64,000 nucleotides of DNA from a virus, in the IMG/VR virus record IMGVR_UViG_3300020421_002402, positions 32,001-96,000 of that record, one strand, 5' to 3'. The notes under the pieces were generated by a model that was not told the DNA's origin, ran no database searches, and saw nothing but the letters and a program-made list of their open reading frames with translations. How positions within the stretch are numbered: the first letter of the stretch is position 1; each line of letters starts with the position of its first letter. Below are positions 439 through 54,800 of this stretch, one piece after another. The translations under genes and the position numbers were made by a program.

Positions 439-466
439 TTTTTACCAAAAAAAGTGGAAAAAAAGG

Positions 467-495
467 TTGACATTGACCTTAAAATTGCATATAAT
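467..495 (+). promoter_or_regulatory. sigma70-type early promoter with A-tract UP element
   Basis: TTGACA-17-TATAAT; upstream TTTACCAAAAAAA-TGG-AAAAAGG block recurs at ~32307. Confidence 0.85.
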
Positions 496-530
496 ATATG
501 TATATTAAATAAAAAAGGTAGGAGTTTTTT

Positions 531-25208: not shown

Positions 25209-25445
25209 TTATAGTACTCTAGTGTTGTCTTTGGATTCTATAAACTGTTGTAGTATGTCCGCTTTTTCGTTTTTTATAACATCTATTATTGTGTTGGTTA
25301 GATTTATTTCCTTTCTAACCATTTGCATCTTGAACATGAGTTCCTGCATTACTTTTTGATAGTATAACAGTTCTTCTTCTTTCGCTTCTTTATCCTTTAT
25401 TAAATCGGATATTAGAATTATTCTAGCAAATTTGTCCTGTTGCAT
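25209..25445 (-). CDS. coiled-coil hypothetical protein
   Basis: ORF; ATAAGTA 5 nt upstream of ATG. Confidence 0.65.
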   Translation of the reverse strand: MQQDKFARIILISDLIKDKEAKEEELLYYQKVMQELMFKMQMVRKEINLTNTIIDVIKNEKADILQQFIESKDNTRVL

Positions 25446-25571
25446 ACAATTACTTATACCTACTAAAAGGCCCAGTTATAATAGTGTTTTATAAAAAAAT
25501 AAAAAAAAGATTGCAAAAAAGGTTGATTTTTGCCAAAAAAGTACTATATAATGTATATAGATTATAAATAT

Positions 25572-25900
25572 CTTTGCATTTTAAGAAATAAAGGAAGTGC
25601 AAGGGCGATAGAATCGTAAGAGACTAAAGTCTACTGTACAACTGCTATAACTAAAAATGCCGTGTATAATCAACTAAGGAAAAATACACAAGGTTTAAGG
25701 ATCGTAAGTGAAATAGACCGAATGGCATTAGTACTAAGAAGGCTATACATGATTGGGTCCACCAACAAAGGACCGGAGATGGTAACATCAAAGGAAACCA
25801 AGAAGATGGACAAGTGTCGTGAGGAGATACAGACACATACTAACAGAAACGACCTCACAATGCGACCTTTTAATTCGCCAAATGGGTTTTGAAAGGATGA
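25572..25900 (+). ncRNA. candidate large structured RNA / hsp20 leader
   Basis: After TATAAATA 25563-25570; about 10 hand-found helices incl. GNRA loop and possible pseudoknot. Confidence 0.55.
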
Positions 25901-25905
25901 GAAAG

Positions 25906-25931
25906 AATAACTTGCTATATAGGAGATTATT
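25906..25931 (+). promoter_or_regulatory. ROSE-like RNA thermometer hairpin
   Basis: AATAA-CTTGCT-ATAT-AGGAG-A-TTATT: UUGCU pairs with SD leaving a bulged G, directly before sHSP ATG. Confidence 0.65.
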
Positions 25932-26372
25932 ATGAATAAGCAAATCCGATTCACTACCGAATCACTTTCCCCACTATATAAAATGTCCGTAGGCTTTGAC
26001 AGACTTGCAGAGCAGTTTTTTAACGATCCTACGTTCACTAATAACGCAACAGGGTATCCACCCTTTAACATCAGCAAAGGCAAAGATGACATTTATGAAA
26101 TTACTTTAGCCGTTGCAGGTTTTAAGAAAGATGACATCGAAATTGAAATTGAAGATGGTACTTTGAAAATATCAGGTACATCTGCAGTATTAGATTCAGA
26201 TGAAATCGAATATCTTCACAAAGGTATTGCTGAAAGAAACTTTACTAGAACATTCAAACTAGCAGAGTTTGTAGAAGTAAAATCAGCAAAACTAGAAGAT
26301 GGTATTTTAAGAGTTTCATTATACAGGAACGTACCTGAAGCAATGAAACCACAAAAGATTAAAATATCATAA
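25932..26372 (+). CDS. small heat shock protein Hsp20 (IbpA-like)
   Basis: VGFDRL, YPPFNI, LAVAGF, YLHKGIAERNF.R.F.L, LEDGIL. Confidence 0.95.
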   Translation: MNKQIRFTTESLSPLYKMSVGFDRLAEQFFNDPTFTNNATGYPPFNISKGKDDIYEITLAVAGFKKDDIEIEIEDGTLKISGTSAVLDSDEIEYLHKGIAERNFTRTFKLAEFVEVKSAKLEDGILRVSLYRNVPEAMKPQKIKIS

Positions 26373-31925: not shown

Positions 31926-32305
31926 GCATTAAGAAAGAATTTAATATACAAGAAACAACTACACCTAGTCCTGATACTGTAATCAAAACAGATAAGGGTG
32001 ATGAGTTTAGTATAGGTGAAATCCAACATTCAAAAAGGATAACTAAGAGTGCTACACCAAAAGGTGACCTAAGTTGGTATGTAAAATGGATAAGCAGTAT
32101 GTTTGTTCTATCGGCTGTGATGATGCGTTCTCAAGATGGCGATATGTTCCAAACAGCAGACAGAGTTCTTAGTTTGATAGGTTGTTTGGGTTGGACATGG
32201 GTTGGACTTTTGTGGAAGGATAGAGCCCTAATTATCCTGAATGCAATCATCGTATTTGCCCTTGGATCAGCACTTTTAGGGCAATTTTTCAGATATTTTA
32301 CATAA
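31922..32305 (+). CDS. small membrane protein (DUF6552-like)
   Basis: WYVKW..WKDRALIILN; 3 TMs. Confidence 0.6.
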   Translation: MSIKKEFNIQETTTPSPDTVIKTDKGDEFSIGEIQHSKRITKSATPKGDLSWYVKWISSMFVLSAVMMRSQDGDMFQTADRVLSLIGCLGWTWVGLLWKDRALIILNAIIVFALGSALLGQFFRYFT

Positions 32306-32331
32306 ATTTACCAAAAAAACTGGTAAAAAGG

Positions 32332-32359
32332 TTGACTTTACTCCAAAAAGACGTATAAT
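32332..32359 (+). promoter_or_regulatory. early promoter with conserved upstream block
   Basis: TTGACT-16-TATAAT; upstream resembles 441-466. Confidence 0.75.
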
Positions 32360-32391
32360 AGTATATGTAGGTTAAGGAAAAGGAGTAATTA

Positions 32392-53969: not shown

Positions 53970-54404
53970 ATGAAGTTAGCAGAACTTTTAGAAGCAGTAA
54001 AGCGAACTCGACTTAACGCAAACGCCGGTGGCGGCGGAGGCGGCGGTGGTGCTGGCGGCGGTGGAGCCGGCGGTGGCGGTGCTGGAGCAGGTGGCTCAGG
54101 TGGAGCAGGCGCAGGAAGTTCTGGAGGAGGCAGTGGTGCTACTGGTTCCGCAGGTAACGGTTCAAGCACATCAGGTTCTAGTGGAGACAGCGGCGGTTCT
54201 GCAGACTCTGGTGCTAGTGATAGCAGTAGTGATTCGTCCGCTGATTCCACACCATCACAAAGTGGAACAGGTGTAGGGTTAGGATATTTTGTACCATTCG
54301 GTAGCAGACCTTACAAAAAGAAAAAGAAAAAGAAGAAAAAGAAAACATCAAACACTGGTGCTCCTAAGGCGCCAAAAGGTGATCCATATAAAGACCATCG
54401 ATAG
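53970..54404 (+). CDS. Gly/Ser-rich protein with poly-Lys tract
   Basis: MKLAELLE, GGN repeats, K10. Confidence 0.65.
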   Translation: MKLAELLEAVKRTRLNANAGGGGGGGGAGGGGAGGGGAGAGGSGGAGAGSSGGGSGATGSAGNGSSTSGSSGDSGGSADSGASDSSSDSSADSTPSQSGTGVGLGYFVPFGSRPYKKKKKKKKKKTSNTGAPKAPKGDPYKDHR

Positions 54405-54452
54405 TAAATAATTACATTGACATTTGCTTAAAAAGGCAATATAATTATGACA

Positions 54453-54800
54453 ATGGAAATAGATTACTTAAACGAATTATCCCCAGAAGATTTTTACGAG
54501 ACTGTTATGGACTTAGCAGACCGTGAACACGTTAGGGAAATACAAGAGGACGAACATAAAGTGTACGGTTGTACAAGTAATGTTTGGGTTGTATTAGAAG
54601 ATGATAATTTAATATTTGATAGCAGTAGTGCATTTGTAAAAGGATTGCTTACTGTTATTTGTTCACAGTTAAACACCATAGAAGATATCAGAAATGTGAC
54701 CTTAGAACAGTATCCATTTTTAAATACTAATATAATATCTTATCAACGATTAAAAGGTGTTACAAGTTTCCTAAACCGAGTAAAGCAATTAGCAAATTAA
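54453..54800 (+). CDS. sufE: SufE sulfur acceptor
   Basis: KVYGCTSNVWV, FDS.S.FVKGL, QRLKG; leaderless after promoter 54417-54445. Confidence 0.85.
   Translation: MEIDYLNELSPEDFYETVMDLADREHVREIQEDEHKVYGCTSNVWVVLEDDNLIFDSSSAFVKGLLTVICSQLNTIEDIRNVTLEQYPFLNTNIISYQRLKGVTSFLNRVKQLAN

What the first reader, a model, noticed from the sequence alone, without database searches (positions are those of the whole stretch)
25563..25931. ~330-nt highly structured RNA between a late promoter and hsp20
Seen after TATAAATA: hairpin 25572-82/25594-604. A multibranch domain is closed by AATCGT(25612-17)/ATGATT(25749-54) and contains AGAC/GTCT and AATGCC(25656-61)/GGCATT(25724-29), the latter enclosing GTGTAT/ATACAC and GGTTTA/TAGACC. 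Then come GGTCC-ACCAACAAA-GGACC, GATG-GTAA-CATC (GNRA), a possible H-type pseudoknot GTGTC(25814-18)/GACAC(25832-36) with GTGAGG(25819-24)/CCTCAC(25853-58), and CCTTTTAA/TTGAAAGG. This is much larger than typical ROSE leaders, in a genome with little spare DNA. Inference: a novel large ncRNA or a complex leader heading the hsp20-rpmG-clpS-suf cluster.
Basis: partly seen in the sequence, partly recalled or inferred. Interest (0 to 1): 0.75.

Follow-up and report, generated by a model that had tools for sequence, protein, structure and literature searches.

The report
Giant structured leader on phage hsp20
The roughly 360 bases in front of this marine jumbo phage's small heat-shock gene form a real, conserved, multi-helix RNA: its last 70 bases resemble the bacterial ROSE RNA thermometer that hides the ribosome-binding site, and the 300 bases upstream are a structured extension that matches no family in the RNA database.

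Summary
The finding is real. More than 100 distinct relatives from marine viral and metagenome contigs carry the same RNA, and wherever the downstream ORF is complete (99 of 99) it is an hsp20 gene. Hand-drawn helices are strongly supported by compensatory changes. In the 3' domain 89.6% of cells are paired, against 38-50% in slid controls, and 28 of 42 pairs show double changes. In the 5' domain the figures are 90% against 33-38%, and 15 of 24 pairs.

No ORF is conserved. Rfam has no match, and the RNA was not found in about 185,000 prokaryote genomes.

The last two hairpins (25866-25931) form a ROSE-type module, with an invariant UUGCU opposite the SD and a G.G mismatch. A covariance model of this module finds minimal 60-nt leaders on distant and cultured phage hsp20 genes, and one of those scores 34 bits against Rfam ROSE_3 (cut-off 43).

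This scan had already noted the short ROSE-like leader on many other phages. What is new here is the clade-specific upstream extension. It consists of two tandem GUAA-loop hairpin units, a branched Pa-Pc domain and a long helix Pd with a conserved 28-nt loop. Relatives add further optional modules.

Its pseudoknot and its closing helix do not. Temperature response and the role of the extension remain untested.

The parts
25523..25552 (+). Sigma-70-like promoter: TTGATT 25523-28, an 18-nt spacer, TATAAT 25547-52, preceded by an A-tract
   Evidence: Conserved in the window's subclass. Similar A-tract/GGTTGAC/TATAAT promoters recur at window 447-507 and 32296-32366. Absent in compact relatives. 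That it acts as a promoter is inferred.
25563..25570 (+). TATAAATA box, matching the T4-type late promoter consensus; the inferred transcription start is near 25576
   Evidence: (T/G/C)ATAAATA lies directly before the first helix in nearly all relatives. It also lies directly before the minimal leaders of distant phages, in L319 and Melnitz. Promoter function is inferred from established knowledge of T4 late promoters.
25576..25660 (+). P1: GCAUUUU 25576-82 pairs with AAAAUGC 25654-60 and encloses unit A
   Evidence: helix 1: 83.5% of cells paired, 4 of 5 pairs with double changes (C-G to U-A in 6 sequences). The window's subclass is shifted by one column in the alignment, so the count is an underestimate.
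25597..25639 (+). Unit A. It comprises P1a (GUGCA 25597-601 / UGUAC 25635-39), GGGC 25603-06 / GUCU 25629-32, AG 25610-11 / CU 24-25, an AA/GA internal loop, UC/GA, and a GUAA tetraloop at 25616-19
   Evidence: helix 2: 13 pairs, 9 with double changes, 89.5% of cells paired.
25661..25691 (+). Variable hairpin region P2 (GUGUAU 25662-67 / AUACAC 25684-89 in the window). The 5' arm can also pair distally with UAUACAU 25744-50 (candidate P3)
   Evidence: Relatives carry different local hairpins at this position: CCUU/AAGG, AGGA/UCCU, UAUC/GGUA. The distal P3 is seen in many relatives but is not significant against shuffles.
25692..25725 (+). Unit B, a tandem repeat of the unit A motif. It comprises GGUUUA 25692-97 / UAGACC 25714-19, a purine internal loop, C25703-G25708, a GUAA loop at 25704-07, and the conserved flank GAAUGG
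   Evidence: helices 3 and 4: 95.8% of cells paired, 2 pairs with double changes. Copy number ranges from 0 to 3 among relatives.
25726..25756 (+). Linker. In many relatives this is the site of a 90-250-nt insertion (optional domain O and UUCG/GNRA hairpins), which the window lacks
   Evidence: In domain O the helix GAGCAC/GUGCUC is swapped to GUGCUC/GAGCAC or GAGCUC/GAGCUC in different relatives.
25757..25811 (+). Pa-Pb-Pc branch. Pa is GUCCA 25757-61 / UGGAC 25807-11. Pb is GG 25770-71 / CC 25798-99. Pc is CCGGAGAUG 25773-81 / CAUCAAAGG 25786-94 with a GNRA loop GUAA 25782-85. The conserved junctions are CCAACAAA and AAGAAG
   Evidence: helices 1-3. All 5 Pa pairs show double changes, across at least 8 different stem sequences. 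Pb switches G-C to C-G. In Pc 7 of 9 pairs show double changes.
25814..25863 (+). Pd: a long helix (G25814-C25863 up to G25824-C25853) with mismatches. It caps a conserved 28-nt loop, 25825-52 (AGAUACAGACACAUACUAACAGAAACGA)
   Evidence: helices 4 and 5: 9 of 9 upper pairs show double changes. The loop sequence comes in two conserved types.
25866..25896 (+). Pe: the lower stem CCUUUUAA/UUGAAAGG, a UU/UU internal loop, an apex C(G)CC/GGG, and a variable tetraloop. It is the counterpart of ROSE_3 hairpin I
   Evidence: helix 6: 98.7% of cells paired, 5 pairs with double changes. One further covarying pair is shown. Model R1 and ROSE_3 align this hairpin in distant phages.
25906..25931 (+). Pf: the hairpin that masks the SD. 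It comprises AAUAA 25906-10 / UUAUU 25927-31, a C.A mismatch, the anti-SD UUGCU 25912-16 opposite the SD AGGAG 25921-25 with G25914.G25923, and the loop AUAU
   Evidence: UUGCU and AGGAG are invariant in A4 (part of it by construction of the search pattern). The upper pair switches between U-A (42 sequences) and A-U (36) (helix 7). Predicted dG is -7.8, -5.9, -4.0 and -1.7 kcal/mol at 5, 15, 25 and 37 C. It matches the ROSE definition in PMC3669281.
25932..26372 (+). hsp20 (146 aa), the gene served by the leader
   Evidence: Pfam HSP20, 3.6e-18. In all 99 relatives with a complete downstream ORF, that ORF is a 145-156-aa protein 60-100% identical to the window's hsp20.

Best explanation
The stretch 25576-25931 is the cis-acting 5' leader of the phage hsp20 mRNA. 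It is transcribed from a T4-type late promoter box (TATAAATA) and, in this subclass, also from a sigma-70-like promoter just upstream.

Its 3' end (Pe plus Pf, 25866-25931) is a ROSE-type two-hairpin RNA thermometer. The invariant UUGCU pairs imperfectly with the SD AGGAG, with a G.G and a C.A mismatch. At low temperature the ribosome-binding site would therefore be hidden, and it would open as the weak hairpin melts.

The 290 nt upstream are a clade-specific, modular elaboration built on that core. They comprise P1, the tandem GUAA-loop units A and B, the Pa-Pc branch and Pd with its conserved loop.

I think the extension most likely folds into a compact scaffold, since it has three GNRA loops and conserved internal loops. 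Such a scaffold could protect the 5' end of the transcript and tune the stability or set-point of the SD hairpin.

Shown: the RNA family, its helices, its linkage to hsp20, and its likeness to ROSE_3. Inferred: the transcription start, temperature gating, and the scaffold or tuning role of the extension.
For: Family and linkage:
- There are 108 distinct homologs. Where complete, the downstream ORF is hsp20 in 99 of 99.
- The record holds a single copy, and the modules occur nowhere else in the DNA fetched.

Structure:
- 3' domain: 89.6% of cells paired against 38-50% when slid, 28 of 42 pairs with double changes, 0 of 500 shuffles reaching the observed value.
- 5' domain: 90% against 33-38%, and 15 of 24 pairs.
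- Invariant G.U pairs fix the + strand.
- Mean pairwise identity of the 3' domain is 72%, against 52% at hsp20 third codon positions.

ROSE link:
- The definition of ROSE-like thermometers comes from PMC3669281.
- An hsp20-based fetch that does not depend on the RNA pattern shows a gradient. Minimal 60-nt leaders carry Pe plus Pf only; other relatives carry the full domain.
- Model R1, built from the Pe and Pf of the window's clade, finds 49 leaders in 63 distant hsp20 loci. Twenty-seven have E < 0.003, and cultured Melnitz is among them.
- Rfam ROSE_3 aligns end to end with these leaders: Melnitz 34.1 bits (E 7e-4), L361 23 bits, L319 20 bits.

Promoter: the TATAAATA-type box sits directly before the first helix in all architectures.

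RNA libraries: near-identical pieces of the leader occur in runs from three studies.
Against: - The window itself gives no ROSE hit in Rfam even at E <= 10. Relatives stay below the gathering score of 43.
- The predicted unpaired fraction of the SD changes only modestly with temperature (0.48 at 5 C to 0.63 at 37 C for the window) and inconsistently among relatives.
- The extension is far more conserved in loops and junctions than ROSE upstream hairpins are said to be, which fits a more specific function than scaffolding.
- Sister jumbo-phage contigs (L301, L302) lack the extension, so it is not needed for hsp20 expression as such.
- No experiment on temperature response exists.
- Part of the sequence invariance (ATTCGCC, GGGTTT, AACTTGCT) was imposed by the search pattern.
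Confidence: 0.55

Rival explanations
1. The extension is a sensor in its own right, so the leader is a two-input gate. The Pa-Pd core and the tandem units A and B would bind a small molecule or a protein (a phage or host factor, possibly Hsp20 itself). Alternatively they would switch between alternative helices. Either event would be passed on to the ROSE-type SD hairpin.
For: - Junctions and loops are conserved: CCAACAAA, AAGAAG, the 28-nt Pd loop and the Pe internal loop AUUCGCC/GGGUUU.
- The tandem near-identical hairpin units recall tandem aptamers.
- There are mutually exclusive pairings, P1 against AAUGCC/GGCAUU and local P2 against distal P3.
- CAAGU 25811-15, GCAAG 25599-603 and the GUAAG loops are complementary to the anti-SD strand ACUUGC.
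Against: - Unit copy number varies from 0 to 3, and whole modules come and go among close relatives. That is unusual for a ligand pocket.
- No riboswitch family matches.
- The alternative helices are invariant or not significant against shuffles.
- No candidate ligand follows from the gene context.
Confidence: 0.22
2. The 5' 280 nt (about 25576-25860) is a stable non-coding RNA with a function of its own, in trans. It would be produced by processing or by accumulation of the leader, and hsp20 merely lies downstream.
For: Contigs from RNA libraries of three studies match 25585-25855 with a single difference. Pieces from relatives that cover Pa-Pc have word depths of 333 and 598. Large GNRA-rich RNAs of unknown function occur on phages (GOLLD, ROOL; PMC12286853, listed).
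Against: - Between Pd and Pe there is no terminator-like U-run and no TATAAATA box.
- The RNA is always directly fused to the hsp20 leader, and its modules occur nowhere else.
- The contig ends fall inside the 3' strand of Pd and may be assembly breaks.
- Contigs cannot show RNA ends, strand or level, and DNA can be present in RNA libraries (the caveats given).
Confidence: 0.12
3. The region encodes a small protein (ORF 25662-25892, or ATG 25722-25892) and the apparent structure is incidental.
For: In the window the ORF is open for 76 codons from GTG, or 56 from ATG.
Against: In 65 of 85 relatives all three frames of the conserved core carry stops. Core lengths run from 141 to 147 nt, so indels are not multiples of three. 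The median longest ATG ORF in the leaders is 28 codons. Pfam finds nothing. Substitutions are compensatory in helices.
Confidence: 0.02

Closest known systems
Short ROSE-like RNA thermometers of Pseudomonas ibpA (Rfam ROSE_3, RF02523; Krajewski et al. 2013, PMC3669281)
   Same: Both have two hairpins in front of a small heat-shock gene. Hairpin I has a GCC...GGG apex. Hairpin II carries U(U/C)GCU imperfectly paired with the SD. Hairpin energies are of a few kcal/mol. ROSE_3 aligns end to end with the minimal phage leaders that model R1 links to the window's Pe and Pf.
   Different: The window gives no ROSE_3 hit at E <= 10, and relatives score 14-34 bits against a cut-off of 43. An 18-nt spacer separates the two hairpins. 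The leader is about 360 nt rather than about 60, with at least eight further helices. It lies on a phage behind a T4-type late promoter box rather than a sigma-32 promoter. Temperature response is untested.
Classical ROSE elements (ROSE1 of Bradyrhizobium japonicum hspA; E. coli ibpA), with three to four hairpins
   Same: They have several upstream hairpins before the thermosensing SD hairpin. According to PMC3669281, deleting the upstream hairpins of ROSE1 reduced temperature responsiveness, so they count as folding helpers.
   Different: By recollection, not checked here, those leaders are about 100-120 nt, and their upstream hairpins are only moderately conserved. Here the upstream part is 290 nt, branched and rich in GNRA loops. 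It has invariant loops and junctions and exchangeable modules.
ROSE-like sHSP leader of Anabaena variabilis with an extra extended hairpin (Cimdins et al. 2014, as summarised in PMC4166951)
   Same: It has a ROSE-like SD block plus an additional structured element suspected of tertiary RNA-RNA contacts.
   Different: That leader has a single extra hairpin, is cyanobacterial, and has no evident sequence relation. I did not compare the sequences.
Large ornate phage-associated RNAs (GOLLD, ROOL; PMC12286853)
   Same: They are large, covariation-supported, multi-helix RNAs of unknown function that are often phage-borne.
   Different: Rfam models give no match. Those RNAs are free-standing genes of about 600-800 nt near tRNAs. 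This RNA is shorter and always fused to the hsp20 translation start.

Membership tests
ROSE-like RNA thermometer (as defined in PMC3669281) | Lies in the 5' UTR of a small heat-shock protein gene | tested here: met
   Pfam HSP20 for 25932-26372. The downstream ORF is an hsp20 homolog in 99 of 99 relatives.
ROSE-like RNA thermometer (as defined in PMC3669281) | [quoted passage not shown] | tested here: met
   UUGCU 25912-16 lies opposite AGGAG 25921-25, with G.G and C.A mismatches. The motif is invariant, and the upper pair covaries between U-A (42) and A-U (36).
ROSE-like RNA thermometer (as defined in PMC3669281) | Overall architecture of two to four hairpins | tested here: not met
   The leader is about 360 nt with at least ten helices, including two multi-helix domains. 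Only Pe plus Pf fit the two-hairpin plan.
ROSE-like RNA thermometer (as defined in PMC3669281) | Translation or 30S binding depends on temperature | not testable with these tools
   Only nearest-neighbour energies are available: Pf has dG -7.8 at 5 C and -1.7 at 37 C.
Rfam ROSE_3 (RF02523) | Score at or above the gathering cut-off of 43 bits | tested here: not met
   The window gives no hit at E <= 10. L035 scores 14 bits, L319 20.1, L361 23 and Melnitz 34.1.
   The window scores 82.9 bits, by construction. There are 49 matches in 63 independent distant hsp20 loci, all covering model positions 1-82 but one cut at a contig end. They include cultured Melnitz (31.8 bits) and HTVC115P (23 bits).
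Known large or other structured RNA families in Rfam 15 (GOLLD, ROOL, OLE, HEARO, raiA, riboswitches, ribozymes, tmRNA, RNase P, 6S) | A covariance-model match | tested here: not met
   At the gathering score the window gives only two tRNAs elsewhere. Permissive scans of the window region and of the longer relatives L035 and L061 give only chance-level hits.
Riboswitch | A conserved aptamer that binds a ligand and an expression platform that switches | tested here: inconclusive
   An SD hairpin is present as an expression platform, and conserved junctions and tandem units exist. Modules vary in copy number. The alternative helices are not significant. Ligand binding cannot be tested here.

The most novel reading that the evidence does not exclude
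The Pa-Pd core with its tandem GUAA-hairpin units would be a new class of large, tertiary-folded sensory RNA grafted onto a ROSE thermometer. It would give jumbo phages a two-input translational gate for a chaperone gene: temperature plus a ligand, a protein or the folding state of the RNA. Alternatively, it would be a stable RNA with a function of its own.
Probability: 0.3. Interest if true: 0.85.

Novelty: new variant of a known kind. Interest (0 to 1): 0.6.

Why it matters
Three points make this matter.

First, it adds a well-supported RNA family of 300-600 nt, with no Rfam entry, from abundant uncultured marine jumbo phages. It offers more than 100 natural variants and clear modularity, which suits structure work.

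Second, it shows how a simple bacterial-type RNA thermometer can be elaborated step by step. The series runs from a 60-nt two-hairpin leader, through an enclosed hairpin, to a 180-nt core and then to leaders of up to about 600 nt with exchangeable modules. That makes the question of what upstream domains do for thermometers directly testable.

Third, it suggests that phages control their own chaperone synthesis after transcription during late infection. That bears on how temperature shapes infection in the ocean.

I found no paper that describes ROSE-like leaders on phage hsp20. The search was limited.

Tried and rejected
- **Rfam.** The gathering scan of the window and permissive scans of 25300-26100, L035 and L061 gave nothing but chance-level hits.
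- **Cultured phages.** blastn of the leader against 50,697 phage records found no match. tblastn with Hsp20 found no cultured phage above 50% identity.
- **Loose DNA pattern.** ATTCGCCANNNGGGTTT in viral contigs gave mostly chance hits.
- **Prokaryote genomes.** The pattern scan of genome contigs gave 4 hits in MAGs. nhmmer confirmed none of them, and about 8 were expected by chance.
- **RNAalifold.** On 57 or 85 sequences it gave almost no structure. Hand-drawn structures were therefore counted instead.
- **Pc loop against anti-SD.** The alifold proposal of a helix between the Pc loop GGCAA and UUGCU was rejected. The loop varies as GCAA, GUAA or GAAA, which is how a GNRA tetraloop varies, not a pairing partner.
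- **Candidate P3.** The distal helix closing unit B is seen by eye in many relatives. The longest complementary run averages 6.8, against 6.1 in shuffles, and only 12% of sequences reach p < 0.05. It is not established.
- **SD accessibility.** Thermodynamic profiles against temperature are inconsistent among relatives.
- **RNA libraries.**
  - In X16, X18 and X20 no contig at 88% or more identity covers the hsp20 coding sequence.
  - The near-identical contigs end at 25585-89 and at 25853-55.
  - A part without cover and contig ends are not evidence of processing or of relative level, and no DNA run was laid for comparison.
- **Second R1 hit.** The hit in the record (window 54392-54455, E 0.93) is a sigma-70-like promoter, not a leader.
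- **Protein reading.** The ORF reading was rejected.

Full report
**Where the window lies.** The window is bases 32001-96000 of a 110-kb IMG/VR virus record that CheckV rates 31% complete. That implies a genome of about 350 kb. GC content is about 33%. Around the finding lie a divergent 78-aa ORF (25209-25445, minus strand) and, on the plus strand, hsp20 (25932-26372), L33, ClpS, SufB and SufC. The intergenic gap is 486 nt.

**The observation itself.** Folded alone, the plus strand gives -75.7 kcal/mol and z = -2.4, with 3 of 100 shuffles as good. The minus strand gives z = -1.2. That is suggestive, no more. Rfam 15 has no match at the gathering score or at E <= 10.

**Relatives.**
- A search of viral contigs with the Hsp20 protein gave eight close loci. 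All carry a similar upstream element, with conserved blocks broken by variable insertions.
- DNA patterns and nhmmer added more.
- A 21-base gapped pattern taken from the 3' end recovered 112 marine metagenome loci, nearly all confirmed by nhmmer.
- After removing duplicates there are 108 distinct elements.
- In all 99 with a complete downstream ORF, that ORF is a 145-156-aa Hsp20, 60-100% identical to the window's.
- The record has one copy. The sub-modules occur nowhere else in the record or in about 2 Mb of fetched loci.
- The same pattern gave only four unconfirmed hits in 185,579 prokaryote genomes. No cultured phage matches the leader at the DNA level.

**Structure of the universal 3' domain (window 25757-25931; alignment A4, 85 distinct sequences).**
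- Pa (GUCCA/UGGAC) closes a branch. The branch contains the 2-bp Pb and the hairpin Pc with a GNRA loop.
- Pd is a 12-pair helix with mismatches under a conserved 28-nt loop.
- Pe has a U-rich lower stem, a UU/UU loop, a C(G)CC/GGG apex and a variable tetraloop.
- Pf hides the SD.
- Counted on A4, 89.6% of cells are standard pairs, against 38-50% when the 3' partners are slid by 1-3 columns.
- Twenty-eight of 42 pairs show double changes, in 556 cells against at most 108 in the controls. No shuffle of 500 reaches the observed covariation score.
- Most of the top mutual-information pairs lie in this structure, and they add one more Pe pair.

**Structure of the 5' domain (25576-25725; alignment A5, 57 sequences).**
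- P1 encloses unit A. Unit B follows after a variable hairpin.
- The two units are tandem copies of one motif. Each has an outer stem, a short middle stem, an A/G-rich internal loop, a C-G pair and a GUAA tetraloop. Each has the flanks CAAGG and (C/A)UG.
- Ninety percent of cells are paired, against 33-38% when slid, and 15 of 24 pairs show double changes.
- Invariant G.U pairs place the RNA on the plus strand.

**No protein is encoded.** Sixty-five of 85 relatives have stops in all three frames of the conserved core. Core length varies from 141 to 147 nt. Pfam finds nothing for the ORFs.

**Selection.** Mean pairwise identity of the 3' domain is 72%. For the hsp20 coding sequence it is 71%, and at third codon positions 52%. 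Twenty-one of about 185 positions were fixed by the search pattern. Without them the figure is still about 69%.

**Modularity.**
- Relatives carry 0-3 units.
- They carry 0-2 copies of an inserted domain O. In its central helix GAGCAC/GUGCUC is swapped to GUGCUC/GAGCAC or GAGCUC/GAGCUC.
- They also carry UUCG or GNRA hairpins.
- Leaders therefore range from about 300 to about 600 nt. The window has one of the shorter forms.
- A compact class starts with a TATAAATA-type box directly after the upstream gene and has no sigma-70-like promoter.
- The box lies directly before the first helix in every class.

**The link to ROSE.**
- Pf reads AAUAA-C-UUGCU-AUAU-AGGAG-A-UUAUU, with G.G and C.A mismatches. 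Its predicted dG is -7.8, -5.9, -4.0 and -1.7 kcal/mol at 5, 15, 25 and 37 C.
[quoted passage not shown] They lie upstream of small heat-shock genes, have two to four hairpins, and have hairpin energies of -4.1 to -7.6 kcal/mol.
- To remove ascertainment bias I fetched 80 viral loci by Hsp20 similarity alone.
  - Above about 70% identity nearly all have the full 3' domain, including loci that do not match my DNA pattern.
  - Several at 53-71% have only Pe plus Pf. Among them are contigs of 216 and 340 kb.
  - Loci at 44-48% have a 60-nt leader consisting of TATAAATA, a GAUACGCC-N4-GGGUAUC hairpin and AAUCUUGCU...AGGAG.
- Covariance model R1, built from the Pe and Pf of the window's clade, finds such leaders in front of hsp20 in 49 places among 63 distant loci, 27 of them with E < 0.003. 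Cultured Methylophilales phage Melnitz is among these 27. Pelagibacter phage HTVC115P matches more weakly, with 23 bits and E 0.07.
- Prochlorococcus phage P-SSM3 shows the same plan by eye.
- Rfam ROSE_3 aligns end to end with these minimal leaders: Melnitz 34.1 bits (E 7e-4), L361 23 and L319 20. All are below the cut-off of 43.
- Pe and Pf are therefore the counterparts of ROSE_3 hairpins I and II. The window's RNA is an enlarged member of a wider phage hsp20 leader family.

**Earlier notes of this scan.** They had already recorded the short ROSE-like leader on hsp20 of many other phages, and at 25906-25934 of this window. My tests agree with them and were made independently. One note flags a look-alike 290-nt RNA in another genome. 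Two literature searches found no paper on such leaders in phages.

**RNA libraries.** Contigs from metatranscriptomes of three studies match 25585-25855 with one difference. Pieces of relatives' leaders reach word depths of 333 and 598. This shows that the sequence is present in RNA libraries. Contigs cannot give ends, strand or level.

**Mechanism.**
- Shown: a conserved multi-domain RNA fused to the hsp20 start, whose last hairpin pairs the SD with a ROSE-type anti-SD.
- Inferred: transcription from the late-type box starting near 25576, so that the 5' end lies in P1.
- Inferred: melting of Pf with rising temperature frees the SD.
- Inferred: the extension acts as a compact scaffold that protects the transcript and tunes Pf.
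- The strong conservation of loops and junctions, the tandem units and several mutually exclusive pairings keep a sensor reading alive.
- The loss of the extension in sister phages and the variable module content argue against a single fixed ligand pocket.

**Verdict.** The feature is real. It is a new, large variant of a known kind of regulator. The function of the extension is open.

Noticed in passing
L363 340-402 (Prochlorococcus phage P-SSM3), L364 283-355 (Methylophilales phage Melnitz-3), L365 338-400 (Pelagibacter phage HTVC115P): Cultured marine phages carry a minimal two-hairpin leader with U(U/C)GCU opposite the SD in front of hsp20. Melnitz scores 34.1 bits against Rfam ROSE_3 and 31.8 bits against my model R1. 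None of the three records annotates it.
   Followed up: partly
window 447-507, 25487-25564, 32296-32366: A recurring strong sigma-70-like promoter consisting of an A-tract, AAAAAGGTTGA(C/T), a 17-18-nt spacer and TATAAT. Two of the three copies lie close in front of an ATG. This looks like the phage's early or middle promoter class.
   Followed up: partly
relatives, e.g. L061 13620-13720, L273, L274 (absent from the window; insertion site 25726-25756): An optional 90-nt domain O with the twice-repeated motif UCUUCAAAAG(A/U)GC(A/U)CGG. Its central helix is swapped (GAGCAC/GUGCUC, GUGCUC/GAGCAC, GAGCUC/GAGCUC) among relatives. This is clear covariation in a module of unknown role.
   Followed up: partly
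L301 (contig of 216,820 bases) and L302 (contig of 339,794 bases): Large contigs with Hsp20 71% identical to the window's, probably phages of the same kind. One is close to the size implied for this genome. They have only Pe plus Pf enclosed by one extra helix and lack Pa-Pd and the units.
   Followed up: partly
window 25882-25935: A 17-codon upstream ORF. Its ATG lies in the variable tetraloop of Pe, and its TGA overlaps the hsp20 ATG (ATGA). The ATG is missing in several relatives, for example L004, L010 and L011, so it is probably incidental.
   Followed up: yes
window 54392-54455: The second, weak hit of model R1 (16.6 bits, E 0.93). It is a TTGACA/TATAAT promoter 6 nt before an ATG, not a ROSE-like leader.
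   Followed up: yes
window 25599-25603, 25616-25620, 25704-25709, 25811-25815 versus 25910-25915: GCAAG, two GUAAG(U) loops and CAAGU are all complementary to the anti-SD strand ACUUGC. All are invariant, so pairing cannot be tested by covariation. They could act as anti-anti-SD elements or could be chance in an A/G-rich RNA.
   Followed up: no
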